Below, one piece after another: positions 9,872-31,100 of a stretch of DNA of 64,000 nt. A program made the position numbers and the translations under genes. This DNA comes from Escherichia phage UE-S1. Within the stretch, counting starts at the first letter, position 1. Each line of letters begins with the position of its first letter. The stretch is taken from sequence record ON568341.1. The stretch is one strand, 5' to 3'. Below the pieces are notes generated by a model. It was not told the origin of the DNA. It was given only the letters and a program-made list of their open reading frames with translations, and ran no database searches.

Positions 9872-9901
9872 ATGATTGATAATAATTTTAAGGGAGTCCC
9901 T

Positions 9902-11143: not shown

Positions 11144-11232
11144 TGGAGGGATGCTGTACTTTATTTGAACTTTTATATATTCATGAACACATAGTTGCCC
11201 TCACAAATCTAATAAAGGATAAATGTAAATGA
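11143..11232 (+). pseudogene. truncated FamA paralog remnant (29 codons)
   Basis: encodes MEGCCTLFELLYIHEHIVALTNLIKDKCK; 3-prime part matches C-terminus of gene 10705-10932 (HEHIVALTNYIMDKC); central motif deleted; start/stop overlaps retained. Confidence 0.4.
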
Positions 11233-11486
11233 AACACTTGACTGATGATGAACATGAAACTATAATTCGTAAACTAACCCCCATCACAAGGATAGTATAC
11301 GGTGATCCCAGCCTTACATGGAACCAAATGCAAGCTAAAGTTAATGAGCTATGGTTGCTGTACTTTATGGGGACTCAATATCAAGATAAGTTTTGCACAG
11401 AATATATCGAACAATTAACGAATGTTATACAGGATAAACTAAATGAACGAATTGTGGAAAAATATGAAAACTTTATCAAGCATTGA
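11229..11486 (+). CDS. FamA small paralog
   Basis: motif MGTQYQDKF. Confidence 0.6.
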   Translation: MKHLTDDEHETIIRKLTPITRIVYGDPSLTWNQMQAKVNELWLLYFMGTQYQDKFCTEYIEQLTNVIQDKLNERIVEKYENFIKH

Positions 11487-11715
11487 GTATCAGACTGCCC
11501 TCTTCTCTCTTCTAAATACCCTCCGCACGAACAATAAACTTTATAATTCCCGTGAAGCTGATATTGTCAACGCTGATGTATATCTTAATAAATTCATTGG
11601 GACTAACTATCAAGAACTGTTTGTTTTACGATATATCTCTGCACTAAGAAACGAAATATCAGATAAAACCCGACAAGCCAGAAGAGAATGGAAGAAACAA
11701 TGCGACACAGACTAA
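11443..11715 (+). CDS. FamA small paralog
   Basis: motif IGTNYQELFV. Confidence 0.6.
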   Translation: MNELWKNMKTLSSIEYQTALFSLLNTLRTNNKLYNSREADIVNADVYLNKFIGTNYQELFVLRYISALRNEISDKTRQARREWKKQCDTD

Positions 11716-11951
11716 ATCACAAAATGTATTGTAAACTATTACAGGAACTGACACAGAAACACTATAATACAATATCTTCCATATTACCCTATGATATCAT
11801 GCGTTTAATTCATAGTGAGGCAGAGATGTTAGTACTGATGACCGGTACTGATAAAATAGCAATCACCAGATCGATAGAGCAATATATTGATGCACACTGT
11901 CAATGTATTAGAACTGAGATATGGAGGCGAGTAAATGAAAGTACTGAATGA
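11688..11951 (+). CDS. FamA-like divergent paralog
   Basis: motif degenerate (MTGTDKIAI); same size and packing. Confidence 0.5.
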   Translation: MEETMRHRLNHKMYCKLLQELTQKHYNTISSILPYDIMRLIHSEAEMLVLMTGTDKIAITRSIEQYIDAHCQCIRTEIWRRVNESTE

Positions 11952-12150
11952 GTATCAGTATCATTGGAGGTTACAAACTATAAGAGGGAAAGTTGTTAGT
12001 ATTTCTTTAGACAAGTCTATTGCACAAGAGGACAAATGTGTTATAATAGCTGAAATGAAGTTGGGTGTATTTGTAGGAACAAACTATCAAAACATCTACA
12101 CTGACGTATTATTAAGTGCCTTACGCAACAAGGTGTTATCCAGAGAATGA
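11935..12150 (+). CDS. FamA small paralog
   Basis: motif VGTNYQNIYT. Confidence 0.65.
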   Translation: MKVLNEYQYHWRLQTIRGKVVSISLDKSIAQEDKCVIIAEMKLGVFVGTNYQNIYTDVLLSALRNKVLSRE

Positions 12151-12365
12151 GAAAATTAATAGGTTACGAATATGTTAAGCTTCTGAAAACCTGTAGTATT
12201 AGCAGGGTAAAGATTCAATCTGATAAGAGTATTCCTGTTGAACTAAAGTACGCAATGATGGCTGAACTTTATGTAGGTGCACTATTGGGGACAAACTATC
12301 AACAAATGTATGTAGACCTATGGGTTGACGCTCTACAGAAAGAGGTCCAAAGTAAATGCAAATGA
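12147..12365 (+). CDS. FamA small paralog
   Basis: motif LGTNYQQMYV. Confidence 0.65.
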   Translation: MRKLIGYEYVKLLKTCSISRVKIQSDKSIPVELKYAMMAELYVGALLGTNYQQMYVDLWVDALQKEVQSKCK

Positions 12366-12577
12366 TTCATTTATCTTACTATGAATATCAAAAACGTTTA
12401 AATGCATCAAGAGGTATAAGGATTCAAATCTTCAATAACAAAAGATTGAAATCTGAAGCCAAAAAAATCAAAATCATAGAAGCAGAGTTGTGCAACTTTC
12501 TAGGGACGAACTATCAGGAAGGTAAGATAAAAAACTATCTTAGAGAACTAATGATTAGTATCAAGAGTAAATGTTAG
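12356..12577 (+). CDS. FamA small paralog
   Basis: motif LGTNYQEGKI. Confidence 0.65.
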   Translation: MQMIHLSYYEYQKRLNASRGIRIQIFNNKRLKSEAKKIKIIEAELCNFLGTNYQEGKIKNYLRELMISIKSKC

Positions 12578-12581
12578 GCAG

Positions 12582-12839
12582 ATGTACATGAAAATGATTA
12601 AATTATCTCAAGCAAAATATAAAGAACGCCTGGAAAAAATTACACCTAAACTTAATGAAATCCATCACGGAGAAGTCATTAAACACGGAAATAAGATGAT
12701 TATGAAACTTGAGTTAAAGGTGGGTGCATTCATAGGAACAAACTATCAGGAGTATTATGTAGATGAATACATAATCGCACTTAAGAGATACATTGGAAGA
12801 AAACTATATCTACAAACTAAAGAATTGTATTGCAAATAA
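12582..12839 (+). CDS. FamA small paralog
   Basis: motif IGTNYQEYYV. Confidence 0.65.
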   Translation: MYMKMIKLSQAKYKERLEKITPKLNEIHHGEVIKHGNKMIMKLELKVGAFIGTNYQEYYVDEYIIALKRYIGRKLYLQTKELYCK

Positions 12840-12850
12840 ATGTGAGGTTG

Positions 12851-13120
12851 ATGAACATGCAAATGATTAATTTAAGTAAAGATGAATATACCGAGCGTAT
12901 GACAAAAATTACGCACAAACGTAATACAATCTATCACAACCCAGAAATTCAACACAGTAAGAAAATGATTATGATGCGTGAGTTAAAGATGGGTGTATTC
13001 TTAGGAACAAACTATCAAGATACAGAAGTAAATCGCTTAATCGCGGAGTTACTACTGGAAATCAGAGGTAAGCTGTACTTTCATCAAATGACCCAACCAC
13101 TGAGGTGTACTAAGAAATGA
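12851..13120 (+). CDS. FamA small paralog
   Basis: motif LGTNYQDTEV; start chosen downstream of previous stop. Confidence 0.6.
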   Translation: MNMQMINLSKDEYTERMTKITHKRNTIYHNPEIQHSKKMIMMRELKMGVFLGTNYQDTEVNRLIAELLLEIRGKLYFHQMTQPLRCTKK

Positions 13121-13332
13121 TCAACATCACATTGCAAGAAAGATTCATCCGAATCAACTATGCAATTACCAAATTAGATGCTACTATAGGATTCCAAAGT
13201 CTACCGTTCCAAACAAGAATGATATTAGAGTGCGAAGCTAAATTGGGTGTACTGTTAGGAACGCAACACCAACAACGATATGTGGAAATCTGGATTGATC
13301 TTTTAACCCAAAATGTACATGAGAAAATGTAA
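13117..13332 (+). CDS. FamA small paralog
   Basis: motif LGTQHQQRYV. Confidence 0.65.
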   Translation: MINITLQERFIRINYAITKLDATIGFQSLPFQTRMILECEAKLGVLLGTQHQQRYVEIWIDLLTQNVHEKM

Positions 13333-13569
13333 ATGAAAAATGAAATGATATACTTAACGAATGAAGAGTTTCAAGAGAAGATGTTAAAAATCTATGATAA
13401 TACTCTTGAGTACGTTCCAAATCAATCAATATATGAAGTGTCTGCGAATGTATTATTTCAGAAGCTACCATACGTTCTTGGTACTGATAAACAAGAATTT
13501 ATGGTCAAAAATATGATTGAACATCTTATGATGAGTATTAAGGAAAAAGTAAATGCAAAAACAAAATAA
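13333..13569 (+). CDS. FamA small paralog
   Basis: motif LGTDKQEFMV. Confidence 0.6.
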   Translation: MKNEMIYLTNEEFQEKMLKIYDNTLEYVPNQSIYEVSANVLFQKLPYVLGTDKQEFMVKNMIEHLMMSIKEKVNAKTK

Positions 13570-13570
13570 A

Positions 13571-13816
13571 ATGATATACTTAACACCTGCTGAGTTAACA
13601 GAAAGACTAGTTAAATCCAGAAGATATACAAATCAACTTCCTCACAACCCAAATCAAAGCCCAGCGGAAAGGAGTGCAGAAGTTTTATTCCAATCACTAC
13701 CATACCTTCTTGGAACTAATAGACAAGAGTATCATATCGAACGTATAATTAAATATCTTAAAATTACTATTAAGGAAAAGATACATGCTCAAGAATTTAA
13801 AAATCCTAACAGCTAA
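13571..13816 (+). CDS. FamA small paralog
   Basis: motif LGTNRQEYHI. Confidence 0.6.
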   Translation: MIYLTPAELTERLVKSRRYTNQLPHNPNQSPAERSAEVLFQSLPYLLGTNRQEYHIERIIKYLKITIKEKIHAQEFKNPNS

Positions 13817-14027
13817 TGAATATCATAAGATTGTAATGACGACTAATAGTGCAATTTCTAAAAAATCAAATCCCAAATACATACTGGAACACACATTTGA
13901 AGAACGACAATTAACTTTAGTTGAAGCAAAACTTCTTGCACTCCTAGGAACAAACTATCAAGAAGAGTACGTTAGAAAACTAATATACCTTTTAACTAAA
14001 CATATTAGAAAAAAGAAAAACGCATGA
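13785..14027 (+). CDS. FamA small paralog
   Basis: motif LGTNYQEEYV. Confidence 0.6.
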   Translation: MLKNLKILTANEYHKIVMTTNSAISKKSNPKYILEHTFEERQLTLVEAKLLALLGTNYQEEYVRKLIYLLTKHIRKKKNA

Positions 14028-14254
14028 AACACTTGACAGATGATGAACATGGGCTTATAGTAATGGATGTAATCAACATCGAATACAAAAAGTTGATACG
14101 CTACCGTTGTTATGAAGATAAGCAACTCGTTCTAGAAGAACAGAAGTTGTTTCGACTCTTAAACACAAACTACCAAGCACAATACGAAGAATCGTATATG
14201 TACCTTTTGGCGAGGAAAGCAAAAAGAGATTATGAAAATTTTAAGCGAAGGTGA
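14024..14254 (+). CDS. FamA small paralog
   Basis: motif LNTNYQAQYE; N-terminus MKHLTDDEH shared with gene 11229. Confidence 0.65.
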   Translation: MKHLTDDEHGLIVMDVINIEYKKLIRYRCYEDKQLVLEEQKLFRLLNTNYQAQYEESYMYLLARKAKRDYENFKRR

Positions 14255-14447
14255 TGCAGTAATATTACTTATCGAGAATTCACGTAAATTCGTAAACATA
14301 ACACTGTCTGATATAGATGAAGATGACAAAGAAGTACTGAGAGCAGATTTAAGAGTACTGTTACATCTCGGAACAAACCTACAAGAAAGATATGTAGAGT
14401 TCTACATTGATGAACTTAAAGAATCAGTACTGAAAAGATGCAAATGA
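14232..14447 (+). CDS. FamA small paralog
   Basis: motif LGTNLQERYV. Confidence 0.6.
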   Translation: MKILSEGDAVILLIENSRKFVNITLSDIDEDDKEVLRADLRVLLHLGTNLQERYVEFYIDELKESVLKRCK

Positions 14448-14665
14448 AAATCATTACTGACGAAGAATACCTAACAATCATAAATGGACTGTTTTTGAAG
14501 CTATATGCTATTAACATATCAAACCTACCAGATATGGATAAAATTATTAAGAGAAATGAAATCTATGTTCTAGCTACCCTGGGAACTAACTATCAAGAAT
14601 ACGATATTAATGATTATATTAAGACACTTAAACGAGCGATTGAACTAAAATGCCAAAACCACTAG
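14438..14665 (+). CDS. FamA small paralog
   Basis: motif LGTNYQEYDI. Confidence 0.65.
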   Translation: MQMKIITDEEYLTIINGLFLKLYAINISNLPDMDKIIKRNEIYVLATLGTNYQEYDINDYIKTLKRAIELKCQNH

Positions 14666-14865
14666 GAACAGCAGAATACATTGAACTCATGGGATTACAC
14701 TTCTCATCCTTTCAGAAACTTATGCGAGAATCAAAGAATGATTTAGAATATACCATCAGAGGTTCAGATTTAAGAATGCTTCTCACCCTAGACACAGATT
14801 CCCAAGAGCGATTTGTCAATGAGCACATTAGAGCACTTTTAATGGAAATTCAAAGTAAACTATGA
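14650..14865 (+). CDS. FamA small paralog
   Basis: motif LDTDSQERFV. Confidence 0.6.
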   Translation: MPKPLGTAEYIELMGLHFSSFQKLMRESKNDLEYTIRGSDLRMLLTLDTDSQERFVNEHIRALLMEIQSKL

Positions 14866-15077
14866 AGGAAATATCAAACCAAGAGTACTTGGCACTATTC
14901 AGAAAGAATAATCATAAATTTATGGCACTTGATACAAGAACTGATATAGGGGAACTTGAAAAAAATCTTTTGCGTTCAGAGATGATAGTACTGACACTTT
15001 TAGGAACACAGCATCAAGAGAGAACTGTTAATTCATATATTGAGATTCTTACGAAGCTTATACAGGAAAAACTATGA
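14862..15077 (+). CDS. FamA small paralog
   Basis: motif LGTQHQERTV. Confidence 0.65.
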   Translation: MKEISNQEYLALFRKNNHKFMALDTRTDIGELEKNLLRSEMIVLTLLGTQHQERTVNSYIEILTKLIQEKL

Positions 15078-15295
15078 GAATCATAACACAAACAGACATA
15101 TTTAAGTTAGCAAGAGAACATACATCTGAAATTGATGCTATAGTATCAAAAAGTTACAATGACCCTTATACACAAGATGTACACTACAATGAATTATGGG
15201 TGTATATACTTTTAGGTACAAATTATCAAGAGCAAGCAGTACAGAAGTATTTGACAGCCTTAAGTACTGCTATTGCTAATGGAATAGGTGTTTAA
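15074..15295 (+). CDS. FamA small paralog
   Basis: motif LGTNYQEQAV. Confidence 0.65.
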   Translation: MRIITQTDIFKLAREHTSEIDAIVSKSYNDPYTQDVHYNELWVYILLGTNYQEQAVQKYLTALSTAIANGIGV

Positions 15296-15539
15296 AATGC
15301 TAGTACTGACAGAACTAGAAATGTATCATAGATTTAACAAGTACTATCATTTACTTAAGCCTATACAGAGGATTAAATGTCCATTTGAAGAGAAACAGGT
15401 ATTAATTTATGAGCATAAGTTATTTGTATCATTAGGTACGAATGAACAAGAGTATTATTTGAAGTTGTACTTAATTACTTTAATTGAATTGATTAATCAC
15501 AAAACTCAGAAAGCTAAGAAATCTAAAAATGAAAACTAA
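15288..15539 (+). CDS. FamA small paralog
   Basis: motif LGTNEQEYYL. Confidence 0.6.
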   Translation: MFKMLVLTELEMYHRFNKYYHLLKPIQRIKCPFEEKQVLIYEHKLFVSLGTNEQEYYLKLYLITLIELINHKTQKAKKSKNEN

Positions 15540-15867
15540 TATTCAACTCAAGGTATACATATCTTATGAATCTATATACATCAAATGCAGTCTATGTAAA
15601 GATGTAATGGATTATAAAGGTAAGCCATTCACAATTACTTACAGTCTAACAGGAGGTTTTTATATATCTTTTGTTGATTACGAAAATAAAATATACAAGC
15701 ACATTGATATTAAAGATTTAAGTACCTTGTCAGATGAGGAATACTTTCAAGAATCATTAGTATGGGATTTAGAGTTTCCTATGACATTAGTACACAAAAT
15801 GATAGTTCTAATGAAAGAAACTAAACCTGAGCCGAGTGGTTATGAAGAATTCATTATTGAGTATTAA
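15529..15867 (+). CDS. FamB paralog (FQ-S motif family)
   Basis: motif SDEEYFQESLVWD. Confidence 0.6.
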   Translation: MKTNIQLKVYISYESIYIKCSLCKDVMDYKGKPFTITYSLTGGFYISFVDYENKIYKHIDIKDLSTLSDEEYFQESLVWDLEFPMTLVHKMIVLMKETKPEPSGYEEFIIEY

Positions 15868-15879
15868 GAGTACTGATAT

Positions 15880-16095
15880 ATGAAAATATTATCATACAAA
15901 GATTATAGTAAGCTTATCAGTGCTTTGCAACCAGAAATTAGGAGAATTAATTCTCTTCCTGTATCTAATGCAGAATGTACAGTACTGAAAAAAGAGTTAA
16001 TATTAAAACGCACAGTAGGTACTAACTATCAGGATAATAGTGTTCGAGATTTAATTAGAGGGTTAATGAACACAATAAAGGCCAAGTGCCATTGA
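15880..16095 (+). CDS. FamA small paralog
   Basis: motif VGTNYQDNSV. Confidence 0.6.
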   Translation: MKILSYKDYSKLISALQPEIRRINSLPVSNAECTVLKKELILKRTVGTNYQDNSVRDLIRGLMNTIKAKCH

Positions 16096-16101
16096 CAGTA
16101 C

Positions 16102-16130
16102 TTGACGGAGCTTTTCATTACTGATATAGT
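16102..16130 (+). promoter_or_regulatory. sigma70-type promoter (TTGACG-17-TATAGT)
   Basis: TTGACG 16102-16107, TATAGT 16125-16130. Confidence 0.45.
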
Positions 16131-16159
16131 ACACAAACGTTAATCATAGGGTAGAAATT

Positions 16160-16405
16160 ATGTTAAAATTTTTAAATTTCCTTATCGTCTTGTGTATTGT
16201 TCTTGGGATTGCACCGTTTGTACTGGTGTATATGGATTCAGATGAAATGCAAAAGATGAATTGCACAAAGACGGGACAGAGTAGAGAAGAGACGATTCTT
16301 ATGCCTGTTACCGTTATTGTTAATAATATGCCCATTACAAACATGGTCCCTAACCTAACGACAACGTACCAGTACTCTTGTACAGACGGGGAGAGGTGGA
16401 GATGA
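16160..16405 (+). CDS. hypothetical small membrane protein
   Basis: N-terminal hydrophobic segment FLNFLIVLCIVLGIAPFVLVY. Confidence 0.5.
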   Translation: MLKFLNFLIVLCIVLGIAPFVLVYMDSDEMQKMNCTKTGQSREETILMPVTVIVNNMPITNMVPNLTTTYQYSCTDGERWR

Positions 16406-16722
16406 AATTTAATATAGCAAAAACATCGAATGTATGTATATTTGGTTATGCAGATGAGTTAGGTGATCTTGACATTCTTTTGTACAAAAAGGATGGTGTT
16501 ATGCATTTCAAGTACCAGGATGAAGAGGCAGACAATTATCCTTTACCTAATTTAGTACAAATGCAGGAAGAGGAATTATTCCAGTACAGCTTAGTATATG
16601 ACATTGATATTTGCACGATGCCAGTACTAATTAATATTCAAAAAGTGATGCTCGATGTGTTTGATAGGCTAATACAAGGCACACAAGGAAGAACCATATA
16701 TGTCAATGTACAAGACAATTAA
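16402..16722 (+). CDS. FamB paralog
   Basis: motif EEELFQYSLVYD; ATGA overlap. Confidence 0.6.
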   Translation: MKFNIAKTSNVCIFGYADELGDLDILLYKKDGVMHFKYQDEEADNYPLPNLVQMQEEELFQYSLVYDIDICTMPVLINIQKVMLDVFDRLIQGTQGRTIYVNVQDN

Positions 16723-16915
16723 TCAAGAATGGAAGACCCAAAAATACAGAGAATTCAATAGGAATTTTACAAAAGACGAATTGAATATAAAAACAACAGA
16801 ATTTGATATGTTTATTTTTCTCGGAACACGTTCACAGGAGCAATTTGTTCATTATTATATAAATTCGTTGCGAACGGAGATAGTATGCAAAACAAAGGGT
16901 ATTATAAAAAGGTAA
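16700..16915 (+). CDS. FamA-like paralog
   Basis: motif LGTRSQEQFV. Confidence 0.55.
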   Translation: MSMYKTINQEWKTQKYREFNRNFTKDELNIKTTEFDMFIFLGTRSQEQFVHYYINSLRTEIVCKTKGIIKR

Positions 16916-17151
16916 ACCAACATTTGTACGCTACAAAGTACAGGGATTTTTGTTTAAAGGGTGGTGATGAAGATTTTTCTTTGCGATTATCAGAATTTAA
17001 TCTGTTATTTTATCTTGGTACATCGGAACAAGAAGAAATGGCACAGAAATTTATCAAGCACCTTGTACAAAAAATTAATATGCAAATTTTGATGCTTAAG
17101 TTACAGAATGAGATAAATGAATATGAACCCAACAATAGTACTGGATCTTAA
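16885..17151 (+). CDS. FamA-like paralog
   Basis: motif LGTSEQEEMA. Confidence 0.55.
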   Translation: MQNKGYYKKVNQHLYATKYRDFCLKGGDEDFSLRLSEFNLLFYLGTSEQEEMAQKFIKHLVQKINMQILMLKLQNEINEYEPNNSTGS

Positions 17152-20134: not shown

Positions 20135-20661
20135 GCAGTACAACAGTACAGAAAGCAATGACATTCAATGAAATTGGTACATTTAAAGATAAGATCATTG
20201 ATTGCCTTGAATACATGATTTGTAGTAATATTGAGAGTATCGAAATATTTAACAAGAGAAATCGCTCTTACCATATGATGTACACTGCAAAAAATACTGG
20301 TATCATTCCATTTATTTCGGATAGCACAATATGGTACGCATGTGATACGAAAAAATACACAGCAGGTTCGTATAGCGTAGGGTCACATACGGAATTGATT
20401 ATTCCTGAGCATTGTATACAAGAAGAAGAATATTTTCAAATGCAATGTGTACATTCACCATTAGAGTTGTTTAGTTTATATATGATACCGTATATTTCTA
20501 AATGTGTTCATGAGAATAAAGCTCCGTGGAATCATGAATTTGTATCGTTGAAGTTATTGTATAATGTATTAGTAGAATATTATGATTACAGGCACAATGG
20601 TACAATCAGTGATGTATGGGATTTTGAATCGCTAAGGGTGAAAACATACACAGGTGAATGA
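20131..20661 (+). CDS. FamB paralog
   Basis: motif EEEYFQMQCVHS. Confidence 0.6.
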   Translation: MSSTTVQKAMTFNEIGTFKDKIIDCLEYMICSNIESIEIFNKRNRSYHMMYTAKNTGIIPFISDSTIWYACDTKKYTAGSYSVGSHTELIIPEHCIQEEEYFQMQCVHSPLELFSLYMIPYISKCVHENKAPWNHEFVSLKLLYNVLVEYYDYRHNGTISDVWDFESLRVKTYTGE

Positions 20662-21277
20662 TATGACCAGAATTAAAATGTATGATTTGATGCAGTACAG
20701 TAAAATTGCAATTCCAGTACTTAATAAAGTGCTGGATGCATTCATTGCCAAATACCCTGAGAATTCAGAGTTACGCATTCCATTTCGTGTACCAGATAAA
20801 GATGATATATTCCAAGTGAATGTCAGTACACGTGGTATTACATTGCAGCAGAAATACATGGATACAGAATATTATGGAATAAAGTTGGATTCAGTTCAGG
20901 GTTCGAAATCAGCCTATGATTTTTTTGTTCCTAATAATATAGAGTCATGGGAAACAAACATTTCAAAGAAAGATGAAAATGATGTTCCTATTAGCGGTGA
21001 ATTAAACAATAAAGTTTTTTATTATTACGAAACTGATAAATTCCCTGAAGAGTTATATTACAATTCAGAAATGAGTGAAGATGTAGATGCATTTATGTTT
21101 CAATTATCTTTAGTACATGATATCATCGACGTTCAAGAGTTAAGAGCAGAAATCAATTTAGCTAAAGAGTTGTCGGACATGTTGCCACCGTTTAGTATGA
21201 TTTTTTGTGAAGGAGGTTATTTTACAAAAGAAGTGTTTGAACATTTCGTAGATGTTGTAAAAGGGTTGGATATATAG
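20654..21277 (+). CDS. FamB paralog
   Basis: motif DAFMFQLSLVHD. Confidence 0.6.
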   Translation: MNDMTRIKMYDLMQYSKIAIPVLNKVLDAFIAKYPENSELRIPFRVPDKDDIFQVNVSTRGITLQQKYMDTEYYGIKLDSVQGSKSAYDFFVPNNIESWETNISKKDENDVPISGELNNKVFYYYETDKFPEELYYNSEMSEDVDAFMFQLSLVHDIIDVQELRAEINLAKELSDMLPPFSMIFCEGGYFTKEVFEHFVDVVKGLDI

Positions 21278-21278
21278 T

Positions 21279-21473
21279 ATGCTTACTGATGATATTAAAC
21301 AAAAATACCGTAAGTTTGATTGGTTCACCGACAGTTTCCAGCTTGAATTACTGCATTTGAATATAAGTGAGACATTATGTGCAGAAACACAAGATGAATT
21401 TGATGACAGAGTTCTTAACATAGTAATGCTTTCTTGCTTTAAACATTTTGGTTATTTTTTCGAACAGGATTAA
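21279..21473 (+). CDS. hypothetical protein (64 aa)
   Basis: ORF track. Confidence 0.4.
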   Translation: MLTDDIKQKYRKFDWFTDSFQLELLHLNISETLCAETQDEFDDRVLNIVMLSCFKHFGYFFEQD

Positions 21474-21481
21474 GGTACAAA

Positions 21482-21997
21482 ATGCATCAACACAAGCATC
21501 ATTCATATGATTTTGCAATTAACATTATGAAGTTCATTCGAGCGTTGGAGGATGGGAAGCTTAGTCATAAGTACAGGAAAGAGGGTAACAATTGGTTCAG
21601 AAATGATTCCGAGTTCAGGAGTCATAACATCGTGTATAGCAATCAGTACAGTGCCAATTACCTACAAGATGTAGTGATGTGTTTTGAATATGTATTGCAG
21701 TTCAGGGGTACAATCCAGAATGAATTAATGGATCACATGTACATCCGATACCTTCCAATGCATAAAGATGAAAATGCATTATTAGGTTCAATATACCAAC
21801 GAGTAAGGGAAATTGAGTGCAGGGATATATTAGATACAGAAGAATCGTATTTCCAGCAATCTCTTATTACTGCACCTGATTCATTACAGGCACATAATTT
21901 GTTTAATACATTACGTCAGAACATCAGTACAGACATATTTTTGTCATTATTGGATTATGATACATTTGTCAAAGATTTAGAGGAAATAGGTTTATGA
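21482..21997 (+). CDS. FamB paralog
   Basis: motif EESYFQQSLITA. Confidence 0.6.
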   Translation: MHQHKHHSYDFAINIMKFIRALEDGKLSHKYRKEGNNWFRNDSEFRSHNIVYSNQYSANYLQDVVMCFEYVLQFRGTIQNELMDHMYIRYLPMHKDENALLGSIYQRVREIECRDILDTEESYFQQSLITAPDSLQAHNLFNTLRQNISTDIFLSLLDYDTFVKDLEEIGL

Positions 21998-22350
21998 GTA
22001 TATTTTCGGTTTGTGTGGTAAACATAAAAAGTGATGGTAGTTTAATTGAATTTGAACTAGTTGATGACGATTATAATGCATATGGTATTAAAGTACAGGG
22101 CAATGATGTACAGTTCAGTGCAAGAACAGATTATGAAAATCCAGTCCATGTTCCTAATTTCATAGAAGATGAAGCAACCCGATTCCAATACGAAACGGTA
22201 TATGACAATGTACATATGCATATTGTTATGCAACAAAGTTTAGTTCAATTAGTTCCTTTGTTCAGACAAAATATATATGTACACGAGATAACGATTGGTG
22301 GCATAAGTAAATCCGTGTTATTCCGTACAATTGATTCCTATGATATGTAA
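21994..22350 (+). CDS. FamB paralog
   Basis: motif EATRFQYETVYD. Confidence 0.55.
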   Translation: MSIFSVCVVNIKSDGSLIEFELVDDDYNAYGIKVQGNDVQFSARTDYENPVHVPNFIEDEATRFQYETVYDNVHMHIVMQQSLVQLVPLFRQNIYVHEITIGGISKSVLFRTIDSYDM

Positions 22351-22359
22351 GGAAGTACA

Positions 22360-22908
22360 ATGAGTTTATTAGATACATTAGAAAAAGACAGAAGTGCAAT
22401 TAAGCGTTTAAAAGAGCAAGTACAAAAGATTGTATACAACGTTGATAAGTTTGAGGTTCCCGGAAGATTTGGTGATATTTCCCATACGGAGATCAAATCC
22501 CTGAAGTCAGATTTGTTGATTAAAAATAAAAATGAGTTGATTTTAGTTTTGAGTTCAGATATGATGGGGGCAAGATATGGTTTTAATTCAATATCAGTAC
22601 ATCCTAAGAGTGAAGGGTTATATCTATCACAGGGTTTCAATAGCAACGAGCAGAAGTGTTTTTGTGATGCCGTGCATGATCCTATGAAGTTCAGGAGAAG
22701 TGAAGCCCAAGCGTTATTAGAGCTATCAGACGAAAGTTTGTTTCAGTACAGTACAATATACGACAATGACAAGCTTCGTTGTATGTACGCAGTGAAGCAT
22801 TATGCACATGAGTTCTCTGGATTTGAATACCTTTTAGTCAGAACCAATACAATGTATCTTGATATGTTAGAAGAATACATCGATAAAGTTGTCAATGAGT
22901 ATTACTAA
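22360..22908 (+). CDS. FamB paralog
   Basis: motif DESLFQYSTIYD. Confidence 0.6.
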   Translation: MSLLDTLEKDRSAIKRLKEQVQKIVYNVDKFEVPGRFGDISHTEIKSLKSDLLIKNKNELILVLSSDMMGARYGFNSISVHPKSEGLYLSQGFNSNEQKCFCDAVHDPMKFRRSEAQALLELSDESLFQYSTIYDNDKLRCMYAVKHYAHEFSGFEYLLVRTNTMYLDMLEEYIDKVVNEYY

Positions 22909-23069
22909 TGAAAGAGTTATTTGAAGATCAGTTCAATACCTATGTGGATAATATTCTTTATTCCAGTCGTGACAGTCAACGAGGGAATCGTGCTTACAAT
23001 ATTGATTACCTATTAGTGGTACTGAGTTCACAGTACACACACGCTGTACAGAGGATGTATTATGAATAG
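22908..23069 (+). CDS. hypothetical small protein (53 aa)
   Basis: TAATG overlap with upstream gene; not in track. Confidence 0.3.
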   Translation: MKELFEDQFNTYVDNILYSSRDSQRGNRAYNIDYLLVVLSSQYTHAVQRMYYE

Positions 23070-23265
23070 TTATCACGATATTGCAAAGGAGAAGTTGGAG
23101 TGCAGTTTAGATTACGGTTTAAATGATTTTCTTACATGCACAATGTACAGGAATGATGATTATGAGCAATCCGTAATTTCGTTGCACAGATATTTCGAAA
23201 TAATTTACGCAAGATATCTTAGAAGGTTAGAGGGAATAGGGGATTGGAATTATGATTACGTTTGA
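23062..23265 (+). CDS. hypothetical protein (67 aa)
   Basis: ORF track. Confidence 0.4.
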   Translation: MNSYHDIAKEKLECSLDYGLNDFLTCTMYRNDDYEQSVISLHRYFEIIYARYLRRLEGIGDWNYDYV

Positions 23266-23497
23266 AGAGCCGGAAACAATGAGTCCATATACGATGAAAG
23301 GTTTTGAATTCATGATGGATTCGATTTTGAAGAGTTCGTGTTTAGTACACAATCCTGGATGTGCTACAGTGAGGGAATATCAGGACAATGCATTGCATCG
23401 TGTAATGAATATGTACAGGAATACGAGCCGTAAGCTTTGTGCGATTAAAAGGATTAAAGAAATCAAGGCTTCTAAGATGAATAAAATCAATCCGTGA
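23252..23497 (+). CDS. hypothetical protein (81 aa)
   Basis: ORF track. Confidence 0.4.
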   Translation: MITFEEPETMSPYTMKGFEFMMDSILKSSCLVHNPGCATVREYQDNALHRVMNMYRNTSRKLCAIKRIKEIKASKMNKINP

Positions 23498-23542
23498 GAT
23501 TTTTGAAATCTTCGTATTCATATATCATAAGGTTTAATAAAA

Positions 23543-24271
23543 ATGAAATATAAAGAATTTTGTATAAAAACATGGATGTACACTGGTGAATTGCTTACGT
23601 GTTGTAATTTGTACAAGCGTGATGTAAACTTCACAAAGGACAAAGTTATCAAGTATGAAAATTCTCAATTTTATTTGATGGATTTTAGTACTGGGTTTCA
23701 TGGTAAATCAACCGAGATGCTGGATTATACATTAATGGATGAGGCGGCACTATTTCAAGAATCATTAGTATTTGATAAGAAGTACATCTGTACATTAGAA
23801 GAGATGATTGAAATTCAGAATAAAATTAAATGTGTTCACAGGGAATGTATTGATAAATGGTGTAAAACTGGTGAAACTGATTTTAGTAATCATTTTAATC
23901 TAGGAGAAAGAGTGATGGAATTTGATTTTTTAATATCAGTGCATACATTCAAGAATACACATCAGTACTTTTGTAATTTAAACAAAGGTGATTTAATGCA
24001 CAGTGCGAATGAGTATATTCATTTTATGGATGGTAAATTCACATTCATTGATTACAGTTCATTACAATATCCACATCAAGATATGCCGGACTATACAATA
24101 ATGAATGAGGCTGAACTATTTCAAGCTTCATTAGTATTTGACAAGAAGTACATCTGTACATTTGAAGAAGTAATTACTATACAAAATGAAATGAAGGAGT
24201 ATGCATCTTTGAATAAACCCAATGAAGGTATTAATCAAGAATACAAATTCAATATAGAGATTCCAAAATGA
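23543..24271 (+). CDS. FamB paralog with two tandem copies of the conserved module
   Basis: DEAALFQESLVFDKKYICTLEEMIEIQNKIK and NEAELFQASLVFDKKYICTFEEVITIQNEMK in one 242-aa ORF. Confidence 0.6.
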   Translation: MKYKEFCIKTWMYTGELLTCCNLYKRDVNFTKDKVIKYENSQFYLMDFSTGFHGKSTEMLDYTLMDEAALFQESLVFDKKYICTLEEMIEIQNKIKCVHRECIDKWCKTGETDFSNHFNLGERVMEFDFLISVHTFKNTHQYFCNLNKGDLMHSANEYIHFMDGKFTFIDYSSLQYPHQDMPDYTIMNEAELFQASLVFDKKYICTFEEVITIQNEMKEYASLNKPNEGINQEYKFNIEIPK

Positions 24272-24627
24272 CATATGATTACTCTATGTACTATTATAAG
24301 TTACCTAAAGGATGGGACTTGTGCTGTAATCTTATTAAGGGAGACTCGGAACATGAGTTGAATTTATATATGCACTACAAAGATTCTTGTTTTAAATTTA
24401 TTCATGTATCACATGATGACTATGACTATGAATCTGAGAGTCTTATAGATTATACAGTACTGGACGATGGCGAACTATTTCAGGAAGCATTAGTGTTTGA
24501 TAAGAATAAGTACTCCTGTACATTTGAAGAAATGGTTTCTTTGCAAACTGAAATGAAGAGATTTGAAAAAGAAAACGTATTTAATCCATCCCCATCAAGA
24601 ACGAATAATTATTATTTCAATATATGA
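24268..24627 (+). CDS. FamB paralog
   Basis: motif DGELFQEALVFDKNKYSCTFEEMVSLQTEMK, near-identical to modules of upstream gene. Confidence 0.6.
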   Translation: MTYDYSMYYYKLPKGWDLCCNLIKGDSEHELNLYMHYKDSCFKFIHVSHDDYDYESESLIDYTVLDDGELFQEALVFDKNKYSCTFEEMVSLQTEMKRFEKENVFNPSPSRTNNYYFNI

Positions 24628-24636
24628 GATTATAAA

Positions 24637-25110
24637 ATGACATTACAGAGTTCATTGGAAAAAGCAAAGAAGATCCATGAGTACATGAATATGGCAAAAG
24701 AAGGTTCAGTTTACGGTGTTTTCAAAGACACAAGTACTCAATATTATGTGCCGGATAACCTCCTTTATAATGACTACTCAGATACAGAAACGTGCGTACT
24801 GGATACCGACCCTAAAGATTATGAATGTTTCATTGATATGCATTATGAGTACATGGTCTATATTAATGATGCAGATATTACCATCTACAGTACTGACAGC
24901 GATTCCGATGACATTATAATTCCGAGTGAAGTTCTGGAAGGTCCGTGGGATAGTGAAGAGTATTACTTCCAACAAAGTACTGTGTATGATGAAGAAGTTT
25001 TAGATGTTATTGTAATTATGTGGTATTTTAAAAGTATTGGTTCTGGGAACTTCTATTTCGATTACAAATACGTAAAGAAAACTGTAGATAACGGTATTAA
25101 CAGGGGTTGA
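24637..25110 (+). CDS. FamB paralog, subfamily B2
   Basis: N-terminus MTLQSSLEKAKKIHEY; motif EEYYFQQSTVYD..IVIMWYFKS. Confidence 0.65.
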   Translation: MTLQSSLEKAKKIHEYMNMAKEGSVYGVFKDTSTQYYVPDNLLYNDYSDTETCVLDTDPKDYECFIDMHYEYMVYINDADITIYSTDSDSDDIIIPSEVLEGPWDSEEYYFQQSTVYDEEVLDVIVIMWYFKSIGSGNFYFDYKYVKKTVDNGINRG

Positions 25111-25111
25111 A

Positions 25112-25582
25112 ATGAGTTTAGAAAGAGCATTAGAGATTGCGAAGTTAATTGATTTATGCAGCAAAGAAATTGTATCAAATTGTCTCAATGGATATCTATT
25201 CAAGGAAGGTAAATCATATTGTCGAATGAGATACGATGACAGTAGTGAGTATATTCACATGTATGAAGAAGACCTTGATGATTCCGAAATAACACTGAAT
25301 GGGTGTGATGTTAATCTGGAAGATAATTACATTTACTTCAGTCGTGGTGCTGATATTTTAATACAAGAAACATCAATTCAACATGTGAATCCAGATGTAT
25401 ATCTTCCATATTCAGTACTGGATAATGACTGGGGAAGTGAAGAGGTTTACTTTCAGCATAATACTATCTATGATGAAGATGTGCTTGACAAGCTTGTCAT
25501 TCTGTGGTACTTTAAGAACACTGATACTCCCAACTTCTATATGGATTTGGATCTACTACGAGTTATAAAAGAGGATATATGA
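25112..25582 (+). CDS. FamB paralog, subfamily B2
   Basis: motif EEVYFQHNTIYD..LVILWYFKN. Confidence 0.65.
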   Translation: MSLERALEIAKLIDLCSKEIVSNCLNGYLFKEGKSYCRMRYDDSSEYIHMYEEDLDDSEITLNGCDVNLEDNYIYFSRGADILIQETSIQHVNPDVYLPYSVLDNDWGSEEVYFQHNTIYDEDVLDKLVILWYFKNTDTPNFYMDLDLLRVIKEDI

Positions 25583-26022
25583 GTTTAGCAAGTGCACTTA
25601 AACTGGCACACAAAATACATCACTTCCACGATAACATAAAAAGTGGGTTTTATGGTGATAAAGTACATACATATGGAAATGAATATTATCTATCAGGTGT
25701 GACAAGATACTCTAATGATATTTTACTTATGGGATGTGATAAAGATAACTTCATGCAGTACACGTCATGTAGCTTATACACTAATTTTATTGTATATATG
25801 CCTGGTGCTAATATTACATTTGACACATCAAATACCTCGGTAGATTTTGGAATACTGGATGGGCCGTGGGGGACTGAAGAGTATTACTTCCAACAGAGTT
25901 TTATTTTCAGCCAAGAAATGCTTGATTCCTTGGTTGTTTTGTGGTACTTTAAGGAATTAGATATAGAACCCTTCTTTATGGACTGGGGGGCGTGTGAGTA
26001 TTTAGAGACAGAGGTATATTAA
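25579..26022 (+). CDS. FamB paralog, subfamily B2
   Basis: motif EEYYFQQSFIFS..LVVLWYFKE. Confidence 0.65.
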   Translation: MSLASALKLAHKIHHFHDNIKSGFYGDKVHTYGNEYYLSGVTRYSNDILLMGCDKDNFMQYTSCSLYTNFIVYMPGANITFDTSNTSVDFGILDGPWGTEEYYFQQSFIFSQEMLDSLVVLWYFKELDIEPFFMDWGACEYLETEVY

Positions 26023-26510
26023 TGTCATTGCAGAGTGCATTAAAAGAGGCAAAGAAGATTCATGAGTACATGATTATGGTACAGGAAGGTTTAGTGCCTG
26101 GTGTATACAAAACATCAGATACGGAATTCTTTGTTCTGGACAGGGATGATTATGATGAGTCCGAGGTACATGCTGAAACATTAGTTCTGCACACTGATAC
26201 TGGTGATAGTGACAACTGTGAATATCATATGTACAATCAATACATTAGTTATTGCCGTAATGAAGATATTACCATCTACAACACAGATATTGATGCTGAT
26301 GACACTATCATTCCATATTCAGTTCTGGAAGGTCCGTGGGATAGTGAAGAGTATTACTTTCAGAATAGTACTATCTACAGTGAAGAAGAACTGGATGTTA
26401 TTGTGATTATGTGGTACTTTAAAAGTATTGACTCCAGTAGTTTCTATTTTGATTATGAATATGTAGAGAATACAGTAGGAGAAGGTAATGTCATTACAAA
26501 GTGCTCTTGA
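26022..26510 (+). CDS. FamB paralog, subfamily B2
   Basis: motif EEYYFQNSTIYS; near-duplicate of 24637-25110. Confidence 0.65.
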   Translation: MSLQSALKEAKKIHEYMIMVQEGLVPGVYKTSDTEFFVLDRDDYDESEVHAETLVLHTDTGDSDNCEYHMYNQYISYCRNEDITIYNTDIDADDTIIPYSVLEGPWDSEEYYFQNSTIYSEEELDVIVIMWYFKSIDSSSFYFDYEYVENTVGEGNVITKCS

Positions 26511-26934
26511 AAAAGCAAAAGAACTACATGGATACTTTGAAGATATAAAGGCAGGAAAGTTCAAAGAAGTATACAAAACCGAGAACGGTAACTACTACAA
26601 AGATGAAATATATAATAATTCCGTTGGTGTAAGGGTTATTCTTGGGTTGAATTCCAATAGTCCTGTGTCGTTTTCTGAATACAATAGAGATGCAGAATTC
26701 ATTAGTTATGTTGAAAATGGTAGCATTCGTTTTATTAATAGACAAAAACCATTAATTTTGAATTATGAAGTTCTGGATGGTCAGTGGAATAATGAAGAGT
26801 ATTACTTCCAAAACAGTACTGTATACGACGATGAAGTACTTGAAGCATTAGTTATTATGTGGTACTTCAAGAGTATTAACTGTCCTCGATTTTATTTGGA
26901 TTTCGAAGAACTTGGTAAAGATCCAGAGGTATAG
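26488..26934 (+). CDS. FamB paralog, subfamily B2
   Basis: motif EEYYFQNSTVYD. Confidence 0.65.
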   Translation: MSLQSALEKAKELHGYFEDIKAGKFKEVYKTENGNYYKDEIYNNSVGVRVILGLNSNSPVSFSEYNRDAEFISYVENGSIRFINRQKPLILNYEVLDGQWNNEEYYFQNSTVYDDEVLEALVIMWYFKSINCPRFYLDFEELGKDPEV

Positions 26935-27250: not shown

Positions 27251-27558
27251 TGACTAAAAATGAATTTGATTCACTTTGTACGGTTTATAATTCATTGACA
27301 GCAATACCTGACTTTATTAATTATATTTCAGCTTTAAATCACATTATGCATAGTTTTGAACAATCATTTGAAGAGAAATATGCTGGAAGAAAAGTTCTAT
27401 GTCATATGACAATGTACTTAGGAGATGGTGAGCCTTACACTACAAGTACTACATGTGAAATAAAAAAATATAATATATTATTGGGAACTATAGAATTCAC
27501 AGTATCCAATGGCGGTAGTTATATGTACTTTAGAGATGGAGTGGTTGAATTATTATGA
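27250..27558 (+). CDS. hypothetical protein
   Basis: TAATG overlap; no FamB motif. Confidence 0.45.
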   Translation: MTKNEFDSLCTVYNSLTAIPDFINYISALNHIMHSFEQSFEEKYAGRKVLCHMTMYLGDGEPYTTSTTCEIKKYNILLGTIEFTVSNGGSYMYFRDGVVELL

Positions 27559-28004
27559 GTTACGAAAGTGCAATCAAGAAAGCAAATGATATTCTACGCG
27601 TCGTTCAATTCTTCAAAGAAAATCCTGAATACGTAGATGATAAAAACCAAGAGAACGATGAGAGATTGAGACGAAAAATTATCTCTTTATTTGACACTAA
27701 TAAAGATAATTGGAGTCTATGTGAGTTAGCATACGATTATATTTCATTGAACCGAAATGATGATGTAGTTAAGATAGAAAGGCATGAATCAGAAGAATCT
27801 TTTAAAATTTCAGATATTTTATCCCTGAGTACTGAAGAAGGGTACTTCCAGGGTAGCACTCTTTATAATGAAGAAACACTTGACAATCTATGCACATTCA
27901 GTGTAATATATCAGAAATCTGTACTAGATATATTTTATCTTGACACTGCTGAACTGCATACCCTAACCAATTTTGTTACTACCGAAGAGGCTACATTCGA
28001 GTGA
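27555..28004 (+). CDS. FamB paralog
   Basis: motif EEGYFQGSTLYN. Confidence 0.6.
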   Translation: MSYESAIKKANDILRVVQFFKENPEYVDDKNQENDERLRRKIISLFDTNKDNWSLCELAYDYISLNRNDDVVKIERHESEESFKISDILSLSTEEGYFQGSTLYNEETLDNLCTFSVIYQKSVLDIFYLDTAELHTLTNFVTTEEATFE

Positions 28005-30050: not shown

Positions 30051-30413
30051 ATGAACACATTAAGTATTACATACTATACAACTAAAAAATTAATTACTTG
30101 TTTAATATCATTGAAGTCAAAAAATGATGATATGTTTGATATGGCTGCATATGAATTAGAATTATCAGAAGATGGTTTCAAGATCTATGAAGTATATAGC
30201 TATGTTCGTGAAGATGTAATTGACACTACACTAATGCAAGAGGATGAGTTATTCCAAGAAAGTTTAGTATGGGATAATAAGTACGATTGTAACTTTGATT
30301 TCTTATGTTTAATCCAAAAAGAAATGAAAAGAATCTTTGATAATTATCCAATCAAACGTTTCAGTACTGCACCTGAGCAATATAAAAGGATTATATTCAC
30401 CTATGAAGATTGA
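30051..30413 (+). CDS. FamB paralog
   Basis: motif EDELFQESLVWD. Confidence 0.6.
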   Translation: MNTLSITYYTTKKLITCLISLKSKNDDMFDMAAYELELSEDGFKIYEVYSYVREDVIDTTLMQEDELFQESLVWDNKYDCNFDFLCLIQKEMKRIFDNYPIKRFSTAPEQYKRIIFTYED

Positions 30414-30780
30414 ATTTGAAGTTATTACATATAGTATAGGTGATGGTATCCGTTGCTACGTACAAGCAAGGCATATTGTTCCTGATGATAAACTGTCACC
30501 CAAAAGTTTCCTTATTACACAAGAACTCTTAGATATTAACAGAGAGAACAAGTATACATATTATCTCACTAAGGGTTATTGTGGTTCGCGTGGATTTAAT
30601 ATTGTAGCTGTTTCTAGAGATGAAATTGATGATTTAACTGAGTACGGTGAAGAAGAGATGTTCCAGTACAGTACTGTTTTTAATGAACTGGATGTGTTTC
30701 TGTTACGAAAAATACAACACATTATGAAAGAATGTTTGCATCATAAGAGAGGTATTGTATGCGACGTGAATCTGAATTAG
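30403..30780 (+). CDS. FamB paralog
   Basis: motif EEEMFQYSTVFN; ATG 30403 overlapping upstream stop. Confidence 0.55.
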   Translation: MKIEFEVITYSIGDGIRCYVQARHIVPDDKLSPKSFLITQELLDINRENKYTYYLTKGYCGSRGFNIVAVSRDEIDDLTEYGEEEMFQYSTVFNELDVFLLRKIQHIMKECLHHKRGIVCDVNLN

Positions 30781-31100
30781 TTAAAGTAATGTACGCTACT
30801 CATATTAAACTACTACTTGTGAAATTTGATTATAATATAAAACATAATAATTTCTATACGTTGATTCGTGATGAAAATTCATTCTCATTGCGATGCAACA
30901 ATATACAGTGGACGATAAGTGATTTTACTTCACTTGACGAGGGTGAATTATTTCAAGAATCATTAGTTTTTAATAGTAATATAAAAGTTGATATAGAAGC
31001 AATTAAACAGTATCAAATATTATTAAACAAAATTATGGATTGTTATCCATGTGAAATAGGTGGTCATATGCAGTTCAAATCAAAAATGTACGAGTTATGA
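30759..31100 (+). CDS. FamB paralog
   Basis: motif EGELFQESLVFN. Confidence 0.55.
   Translation: MRRESELVKVMYATHIKLLLVKFDYNIKHNNFYTLIRDENSFSLRCNNIQWTISDFTSLDEGELFQESLVFNSNIKVDIEAIKQYQILLNKIMDCYPCEIGGHMQFKSKMYEL

What the first reader, a model, noticed from the sequence alone, without database searches (positions are those of the whole stretch)
23543..24627. Internal module duplication and near-identical neighbouring module
Gene 23543-24271 contains two copies of the FamB module (DYTLMDEAALFQESLVFDKKYICTLEEMIEIQNKIK and DYTIMNEAELFQASLVFDKKYICTFEEVITIQNEMK) and the next gene carries a third close copy (DYTVLDDGELFQEALVFDKNKYSCTFEEMVSLQTEMK). This looks like a recent unequal crossover that fused two paralogs, i.e. 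the array is still rearranging.
Basis: seen in the sequence. Interest (0 to 1): 0.5.

Follow-up and report, generated by a model that had tools for sequence, protein, structure and literature searches.

The report
One-base insertion fused two neighbouring paralogs

Summary
ORF 23543-24271 (242 aa) holds two complete units of an uncharacterised phage family (PHROG 15629). ORF 24268-24627 holds a third.

The proposed mechanism is wrong. In all 32 GenBank Asteriusvirus records that carry this junction (121Q, PBECO4, phAPEC6 and others), the two halves are separate genes, A and B. They lie in the same order, in different frames, joined by a TGATG stop/start overlap. The window differs only by one extra A (AA to AAA, 23907-23909), which puts A in frame with B.

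The halves are old paralogs. They share 34.5% aa identity, the same as A versus B in every relative, whereas orthologues share 52-100%.

The fusion is young and inherited, not a read error. It occurs in at least four independent assemblies and in three further 242-aa variants. A close relative has an identical B and an unfused A.

The wider idea that the array is still rearranging holds, but on other evidence:
- a true A::B crossover hybrid in another phage;
- a 529/589-nt indel flanked by ~85-nt direct repeats;
- units C and D present or absent between phages.

Function is unknown. The proteins are acidic, the phAPEC6 orthologues are absent from the published virion protein table, and no solved fold matches convincingly.

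The parts
23543..24271 (+). Fused two-unit ORF (242 aa, 29 kDa, pI 5.1), made of gene A joined in frame to gene B
   Evidence: protein identical to public P0001
23543..23914 (+). Unit A, orthologue of 121Q gp365 / phAPEC6 gp447c. Carries a Cys/His-rich C-terminal tail (KCVHRECIDKWCKTGE..NHFNLGE)
23723..23830 (+). Module copy 1 (DYTLMDEAALFQESLVFDKKYICTLEEMIEIQNKIK)
23903..23906 (+). GGAG Shine-Dalgarno-like element 8 nt upstream of B's ATG. It is retained inside the fused ORF, so free B could still be initiated (inference)
   Evidence: sequence
23907..23909 (+). AAA run holding the extra A. Relatives have AA (GGAGAAGAGTGATGG or GGGGAAGAGTGATGG). This +1 insertion puts A in frame with B
23913..23915 (+). 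Former TGA stop of gene A, now out of frame. Its last base is the first base of B's ATG (TGATG overlap)
23915..24271 (+). Unit B, orthologue of 121Q gp368 / phAPEC6 gp444c. 100% identical in DNA to the unfused B of contig SRR32251462_328
24089..24196 (+). Module copy 2 (DYTIMNEAELFQASLVFDKKYICTFEEVITIQNEMK)
24268..24627 (+). Unit C, a separate gene (119 aa) and orthologue of 121Q gp369. Its start overlaps the stop of the fused gene (ATGA)
24448..24558 (+). Module copy 3 (DYTVLDDGELFQEALVFDKNKYSCTFEEMVSLQTEMK)

Best explanation
The window comes from an Asteriusvirus-type jumbo coliphage, probably UE-S1 or a close relative. Genes A, B and C are three old tandem paralogs of a ~120-aa family. In the ancestral state, A ends in a TGA whose last base is the A of B's ATG (TGATG). 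This layout is typical of translationally coupled neighbours, and it puts B one base out of A's frame. In the window's lineage, one extra A in a short A run six bases upstream of that TGA (GAAGAG to GAAAGAG) shifts A's frame by +1. The TGA is then read through as G-TG-A, and translation continues into B (..NLGE-RV-MEFDF..). The result is one 242-aa protein with two complete domains joined by a very short linker. Shown: the insertion, the collinearity with relatives, the age of the paralogs, and the inheritance of the allele. Inferred: B's own GGAG and ATG survive inside the ORF, so free B is probably still made, while free A is lost. Also inferred: the family consists of small acidic non-virion proteins, most likely host-interaction or anti-defence proteins expressed from a co-directional block, and a viable A-B fusion hints that A and B act together.
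For: Relatives have separate A (125 aa) and B (118 aa) in the same order and with the same junction sequence minus one base. Collinear relatives span 739 nt against 740 nt in the window. A junction peptide searched by tblastn hits all 32 phage records in two frames, spanning 146 nt (30 records) or 145 nt (2 records) instead of 147. Whole-unit identity between A and B is 34.5% in the window and 33-39% elsewhere, against 63-100% among A orthologues and 52-100% among B orthologues. Orthologue dN/dS is 0.16-0.42, so these are real genes under purifying selection. The fused protein is 100% identical to public P0001 (3 NCBI accessions). Three other 242-aa variants with 1-3 substitutions sit on 10, 4 and 2 contigs. 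The same +1 A is present in two NCBI assemblies and two SRA runs. The fused block is 99.5-100% identical between phages that differ by up to 15% in neighbouring genes. A close relative (L019) has an identical B and an unfused A ending GAATAG. Only 1 of 34 family ORFs in the window has two domains. None of the 116 representatives found among 1.84 billion proteins is a true two-domain member. For the functional inference: median pI is 4.7 and gene junctions overlap tightly. No phAPEC6 protein numbered gp40x-gp46x, the range that includes the orthologues gp443c-gp447c, appears in the published virion proteome table (PMC7247149).
Against: No expression data exist, so the fused protein has not been seen and could be non-functional or merely tolerated. 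The allele is so young (2 synonymous differences in 729 nt) that an intact ORF says little about selection. The structure prediction of the fused protein failed (pLDDT 35), so folding of both domains in the fusion is not shown. I could not inspect raw reads. Function is entirely inferred: Pfam, NCBIfam, PDB sequence and fold searches gave nothing convincing.
Confidence: 0.88

Rival explanations
1. One reading: a recent unequal crossover between two paralogs created the two-module gene.
For: The modules are direct repeats 366 nt apart at 82% identity over 116 nt. Recombination between such modules does happen in this family. Contig L020 carries an A::B hybrid with its crossover inside the module. 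A 529/589-nt segment flanked by ~85-nt repeats is present or absent among relatives.
Against: The junction in the window is the native A-stop/B-start overlap, not homologous sequence. Both units are complete. Order and flanks are collinear with relatives, with a net difference of 1 nt. The halves are 34.5% identical, as in every relative. A crossover between modules yields a single hybrid unit (109-122 aa, L020), not a two-unit gene.
Confidence: 0.03
2. The extra A is a sequencing or assembly error, and the phage really has separate A and B genes.
For: The difference is a single base in a homopolymer run. Two UNVERIFIED GenBank records (TH47, CMSTMSU) show a -1 indel in the adjacent G run, so indels at this spot could be artefacts in some records.
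Against: The run is only 3 bases long. The same allele occurs in four independent assemblies (two NCBI, two SRA-derived), and in three protein variants on 16 further contigs. If the window is UE-S1, that genome was assembled from Illumina 150-bp reads at ~6,125x coverage (PMC12805682).
Confidence: 0.04
3. The fusion is real but is the first step of decay. The fused product is non-functional or harmful to A, and the allele is a neutral or slightly deleterious hitch-hiker in a redundant paralog array.
For: The array has at least 34 related genes, so redundancy is plausible. Units are gained and lost freely between phages: JNE01 has only B, TH47 lacks C, and D is absent here. The allele is very young.
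Against: All four 242-aa variants keep the full ORF. Differences from L016/L018 in the gene are synonymous only. B's own translation signals are intact. None of this is strong, given how young the allele is.
Confidence: 0.3
4. The high DNA similarity of the three modules reflects ongoing gene conversion among A, B and C, rather than purifying selection on an old motif.
For: Module pS between paralogs is 0.35-0.55 (dS ~0.5-0.9), while the rest of the units looks saturated. Mosaic A alleles switch type inside the module (P0015, P0022).
Against: Only about 25 synonymous sites are available, so the errors are large. The non-module parts align poorly, which inflates their apparent dS. Module dS of ~0.5-0.7 equals the deepest orthologue divergence in the genus, so there has been no recent homogenisation. 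The F-Q core is invariant across all 35 domains, which shows strong protein-level constraint.
Confidence: 0.2

Closest known systems
PHROG 15629 (and the related PHROG 13866, 34600, 32253): uncharacterised small proteins of RaK2/121Q-like jumbo phages
   Same: Each half of the fused ORF and the next ORF match the full 121-position profile. The predicted fold matches BFVD models of PBECO4, slurp01, 121Q and RaK2 proteins.
   Different: The family profile is about 121 positions long, and every member I examined is a single unit of about 104-125 aa. The window gene carries two units in one polypeptide.
Tandem gene arrays of jumbo phages 121Q and G (Hua et al. 2017, PMC5646251; echoed for phAPEC6 in PMC7247149)
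   Same: The window holds large co-directional arrays of paralogs. At least 34 ORFs carry the F-Q domain (15.5-42.8 kb), and a further 28 small ORFs form a second family (9.9-17.2 kb).
   Different: [quoted passage not shown] They give no family definition, function or structural variants. I cannot tell which of the two arrays they meant.
Fusion of adjacent genes by frameshift or stop loss at an overlapping stop/start codon ('Rosetta-stone' type fusions; general knowledge)
   Same: Two complete collinear parental ORFs, a 1-nt indel next to a TGATG overlap, and the parental stop still present but out of frame.
   Different: The partners here are paralogs of each other, so the product looks like an internal duplication.
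Hybrid genes made by unequal crossover between tandem paralogs (classical example: haemoglobin Lepore; general knowledge)
   Same: This does occur in the same family in other phages. The L020 A::B hybrid has its breakpoint inside the module, and SD-1_S14 P0026 is a hybrid of two other units.
   Different: Those events give one hybrid unit and delete the DNA in between. The window gene keeps both units whole.

Membership tests
PHROG 15629 | Significant full-length match to the 121-position profile | tested here: met
   the fused ORF scores E 1.3e-102 in two stretches (best stretch 125-239 to profile 1-119). ORF C scores E 1.6e-59 (1-119 to 1-118).
F-Q domain superfamily of the window array | A ~75-aa domain with an invariant F-Q dyad in the [DE]E..FQ.S[LT][VI] context | tested here: met
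   One search finds 35 domains in 34 ORFs. One search shows F and Q invariant in all 35.
Unequal-crossover fusion or hybrid gene | Junction lies inside sequence shared by the two paralogs | tested here: not met
   the junction is the native TGATG stop/start overlap, not the module.
Unequal-crossover fusion or hybrid gene | Gain or loss of a unit length of DNA relative to relatives | tested here: not met
   One search gives 740 vs 739 nt. One search gives 147 vs 146 nt across the junction in 30 records.
Unequal-crossover fusion or hybrid gene | Duplicated parts closer to each other than to orthologues in other genomes (recent duplication) | tested here: not met
   A-B 34.5% vs A-A 63-100% and B-B 52-100%; module dS 0.68.
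Frameshift (read-through) fusion of adjacent genes | Both parental genes exist as separate, complete, collinear ORFs in relatives | tested here: met
   in 11 of the 14 GenBank relatives fetched, A and B are complete, adjacent and separate. JNE01 has only B, and the UNVERIFIED records TH47 and CMSTMSU have a frameshifted or broken A. One search adds the metagenomic contig L019, where A and B are also separate.
Frameshift (read-through) fusion of adjacent genes | Small indel that brings the two frames together, with the parental stop still present out of frame | tested here: met
   GAAGAG to GAAAGAG. The TGA at 23913-23915 is retained.
Frameshift (read-through) fusion of adjacent genes | Allele reproducible in independent data (not an artefact) | tested here: met
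   four assemblies carry the same insertion, and three further 242-aa variants exist. Raw reads were not inspected.
Pfam CadC_C1 / DUF7505 / RINGv | Score at or above Pfam's gathering threshold | tested here: not met
   17.5, 15.4 and 14.7 bits against cut-offs of 25, 27 and 21.6.
Amidohydrolase 3 (GenBank product name of the phAPEC6 orthologue gp447c) | Match to an amidohydrolase domain model | tested here: not met
   no amidohydrolase model is hit by the window A-B protein (about 75% identical in the A part) at E up to 1. The name looks spurious.
Virion structural or internal proteins | Detection in purified virions | tested here: not met
   no gp40x-gp46x entry in the phAPEC6 virion MS table (PMC7247149). 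One search found only Gp44. This is literature evidence for orthologues, not for this phage.

The most novel reading that the evidence does not exclude
The viable A-B fusion is a 'Rosetta stone'. On this reading, neighbouring translationally coupled units of the array normally work as hetero-oligomers, and the 34-gene array is a combinatorial set of small acidic binding modules (for example decoys or inhibitors of host defence proteins). These would be diversified by cassette exchange at gene boundaries and by crossovers inside the conserved F-Q helix.
Probability: 0.12. Interest if true: 0.55.

Novelty: new member of a known kind. Interest (0 to 1): 0.2.

Why it matters
The practical lesson is that an apparent internal duplication in a paralog array can be a trivial frameshift fusion of old neighbours. 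Comparison with relatives settles this within a few calls. The biological residue is modest. The locus documents, at base-pair resolution, three different ways a jumbo-phage paralog array changes: a 1-nt fusion, crossover hybrids inside a conserved module, and repeat-flanked indels. It also flags a family of at least 34 genes in the window, found here only in 121Q/RaK2-like jumbo phages, that has a confident predicted fold but no known relative or function. The fusion offers a cheap hypothesis (A and B interact) that could be a first handle on that function.

Tried and rejected
- **Fused-protein structure.** MAFFT aligned A-type homologues to the B half whenever more than three sequences were used. 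The 3-sequence alignment gave a useless model (pLDDT 34.9).
- **Sequence family searches.** Pfam, NCBIfam and a PDB profile search gave no significant hits.
- **Contig look-ups.** I worked around this by looking up the B half alone.
- **Complete E. coli genomes.** No match.
- **Promoter and terminator scan of 22.8-24.8 kb.** No more sites than in shuffles.
- **Literature.** There is no transcriptome for any Asteriusvirus. My first paper search was badly posed.
- **Gene conversion of window A by B.** Considered and dropped. The B-like residues of window A are shared with fEgEco12-type A alleles.
- **TEV-protease-like E..YFQ(G/S) motif as a cleavage site.** Considered and dropped. The motif lies in a predicted core helix.

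Full report
**What the window is.** All ORFs of the region lie on the + strand, GC is about 0.31-0.34, and the genes are small and tightly packed. Megablast of 22.9-25.2 kb hits only Asteriusvirus-type jumbo coliphages and Salmonella phages such as 121Q, PBECO4 and phAPEC6. The best hit is 91.7% identical. The fused protein is identical to a public protein whose longest contig is 358,076 bp. That is the published genome length of phage UE-S1 (PMC12805682), so the window is probably UE-S1 or a very close relative.

The three quoted peptides are present, and they are direct DNA repeats spaced 366 and 359/362 nt apart. One repeat family spans 116 nt at 82% identity, and the 59-nt core is 83-86% identical. 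Each copy is more than a 36-aa module. PHROG 15629, a single-unit profile of 121 positions, matches the 242-aa ORF twice (E 1.3e-102) and the next ORF once (E 1.6e-59). The N-terminal CNLxKGD motif is also repeated. So the gene contains two complete family units, which I call A (23543-23914) and B (23915-24271). It is followed by unit C (24268-24627).

**How the two units came to be one gene.**
- In 121Q, phAPEC6, E9.1, fEgEco12, Turkey3, PBECO4, EC.P1, ph0011, BF17, JP4 and WPEC3, A (125 aa, ending ..NHFNLGE[EV]*) and B (118 aa, MEFDFLISVH..) are separate genes in the same order.
- Their junction reads CTAGGGGAAG[AT]GTGATGG, or CTAGGAGAAGAGTGATGG in WPEC3. A's TGA shares its last base with B's ATG, so the two genes lie in different frames.
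- The window reads CTAGGAGAAAGAGTGATGG, with one extra A in the run at 23907-23909. This +1 shift turns ..GAA GAG TGA into ..GAA AGA GTG ATG.., giving ..NLGERVMEFDF...
- Collinear relatives span 739 nt where the window spans 740.
- A 49-aa junction peptide searched by tblastn hits all 32 phage records that have this junction in two frames. They span 146 nt in 30 records and 145 nt in TH47 and CMSTMSU, never the in-frame 147.

The fusion is therefore a one-base frameshift at an overlapping stop/start, not a crossover.

**Age of the paralogs.** A and B share 34.5% protein identity in the window and 33-39% in six other phages. Orthologues share 63-100% (A) and 52-100% (B). B is closer to C (~42%) and to a fourth unit, D (~45%), than to A. 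Within the module, dS between A and B is about 0.68, against 0.03 for gene C between the window and 121Q. Orthologue dN/dS of 0.16-0.42 shows these are genuine coding genes. The duplication that made A, B and C predates the sampled genus.

**The fusion is real, young and derived.**
- The exact 242-aa protein has three NCBI accessions. It occurs on ~348-kb contigs in two 'E. coli' assemblies and in two SRA-derived assemblies, and all of these carry the same extra A.
- Three more 242-aa variants (K32R, H53R, V124M in combinations) occur on 10, 4 and 2 contigs.
- Between the window and these contigs the fused gene is 99.5-100% identical and differs only synonymously, while neighbouring genes differ by up to 15%.
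- Contig L019 has a B that is 100% identical in DNA, but an unfused A ending GAATAG that is 92.5% identical.
- Unfused alleles with the same derived MKYKEF start also exist (P0011, P0015).
- With every outgroup unfused, the fused state is the derived one.
- It is also architecturally unique. Only 1 of 34 family ORFs in the window has two domains. Among 116 representative clusters found in 1.84 billion proteins, none is a true two-domain member; the one multi-stretch 241-aa hit is a TPR false positive.

**The array does rearrange, but by other events.**
- Contig L020 (SRR27732228) has a single A::B hybrid. It is identical to fEgEco12 A, apart from one substitution, up to ..AAGTACATCTGTACATT inside the module, and 100% identical to fEgEco12 B from there on. 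The shared exact stretch at the switch is far too short for an assembly artefact.
- 121Q, phAPEC6, BF17 and Turkey3 carry an extra 529- or 589-nt segment between A and B. It holds a truncated B' plus a divergent unit X of PHROG 13866, and it is bounded by ~85-nt direct repeats of B's 5' end, up to 96% identical. Turkey3 and fEgEco12 are 98-99% identical on both flanks and differ by exactly this segment.
- Unit D is present in fEgEco12, Turkey3, ph0011, WPEC3 and TH47 but absent from the window. TH47 lacks C, and JNE01 has only B.
- In another part of the array, Salmonella phage SD-1_S14 has a hybrid of the window's 30051-type and 30759-type units, with the gene between them deleted.

**What the proteins are.**
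- Iterated HMM searches find the ~75-aa domain in 34 window ORFs between 15.5 and 42.8 kb. An F-Q dyad is invariant in all 35 copies.
- The family is acidic (median pI 4.7), and its genes are linked by ATGA, TAATG or TGATG overlaps.
- It is narrowly distributed. Only 116 clusters at 50% identity match, and those I inspected come from 121Q/RaK2-like phages.
- AlphaFold2 of unit B with 35 sequences gives a confident model (pLDDT 83.5, pTM 0.79). It has five strands, a short helix carrying the F-Q motif, a long helix and a final strand.
- Pfam, NCBIfam and PDB sequence searches are empty.
- No phAPEC6 protein numbered gp40x-gp46x, the range that includes the orthologues gp443c-gp447c, is listed among the 62 virion proteins found by mass spectrometry.
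- From this I infer, without direct evidence, that these are non-structural host-interaction proteins.

**Consequences of the fusion (inference).** The aligned last strand of A (HFNL) ends about four residues before B's Met, and B's first strand starts at residue 5. The two domains are therefore tethered by a very short linker. GGAG at 23903-23906 lies 8 nt before B's ATG, so B can probably still be made on its own, while free A is lost. The ancestral TGATG coupling, together with a fusion that persists in several sampled phages, hints that A and B act together, but this is untested.

**Relation to the literature.** Hua et al. [quoted passage not shown] The phAPEC6 paper repeats this. The window has two such arrays: the F-Q family, and 28 small ORFs at 9.9-17.2 kb. 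I cannot tell which one they meant. None of the papers I found and read describes the fused gene, the hybrids or the repeat-flanked indel.

**Verdict.** The proposed mechanism is refuted and replaced by a one-base frameshift fusion of ancient neighbours. The general claim of a dynamic array is supported by independent variants. This is an ordinary event in a family that is poorly understood but already noted in the literature, so interest is low.

Noticed in passing
window 9872-17151: A second tandem array: 28 co-directional ORFs of ~64-96 aa form one BLAST cluster with a conserved LGTNYQE.YV..YI..L motif. [quoted passage not shown] 2017.
   Followed up: partly
window 15529-42845: At least 34 ORFs share the ~75-aa domain with an invariant F-Q dyad. 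Short (~100-137 aa) and long (~147-207 aa, with an extra N-terminal MSLQSALEKAKKIH-type helix) architectures are interleaved.
   Followed up: partly
window 20654-26934 vs L016/L018/L019: Gene-by-gene mosaic. Identity to otherwise close relatives jumps between 99-100% and 85-94% at gene boundaries. For example, 21994-22350 is 85% and 25579-26022 is 85%, next to genes at 99.8%. This suggests cassette exchange among alleles.
   Followed up: partly
L020 3001-3330 (SRR27732228 contig): A true A::B single-unit hybrid with its crossover inside the conserved module. This is the product an unequal crossover actually gives in this family.
   Followed up: yes
L001 2667-3256; L002 2643-3172; L005 1574-2103; L012 1574-2103: A 529/589-nt segment (truncated B' plus divergent unit X, PHROG 13866) is present in some phages and absent in the window. 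It is flanked by ~85-nt direct repeats of B's 5' end.
   Followed up: yes
P0026 (Salmonella phage SD-1_S14) vs window 30051-31100: A hybrid of the window's 30051-type N-terminus and 30759-type C-terminus, with the intervening gene (30337-30780 type) deleted. SD-1_S14 has the smallest genome of the group (310,643 bp).
   Followed up: partly
L006 ~1560-1575 (TH47) and L007 ~1558-1573 (CMSTMSU): A -1 indel (GGGG to GGG) within 10 nt of the window's +1 insertion changes A's C-terminus (..NLGKSDGI*). Both records are flagged UNVERIFIED, so this may be a sequencing error or a second frameshift at the same spot.
   Followed up: no
window 23828-23905 (A tail): Unit A alone carries a conserved Cys/His-rich tail (KC.H.EC.D.WC.TGE...NH.FNLGE) and has 7 Cys in total. 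A weak RINGv hit (E 0.034) lies below threshold. It may be a metal-binding knuckle.
   Followed up: no
window 27555-28004 (EEGYFQGS), 24637-26934 (EEYYFQQS / EEYYFQNS): The family motif E-x-x-Y-F-Q-(G/S/Q/N) resembles the TEV protease site ENLYFQ(G/S). In the model it lies in a core helix, so this is probably coincidence. TPR repeats also hit the profile for the same reason (P0135).
   Followed up: partly
L002 2266-2643 (phAPEC6 gp447c): The GenBank product name 'amidohydrolase 3' for the A orthologue has no support from Pfam or NCBIfam scans of the window protein.
   Followed up: partly
L016, L018 (GCA_019326865.1, GCA_024875585.1): Near-complete ~348-kb jumbo-phage genomes sit as contigs in assemblies labelled Escherichia coli. 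This could be a carrier state or contamination. No match was found in complete RefSeq E. coli genomes.
   Followed up: no
window 23498-23542 vs L001 2091-2290: The intergenic spacer upstream of A is ~45 nt in the window lineage but ~200 nt in 121Q, E9.1 and others. A's start codon has also moved (MKYKEF vs MEIKYKEF). In several relatives, annotators extended A through this spacer, giving dubious 153-172-aa products.
   Followed up: no
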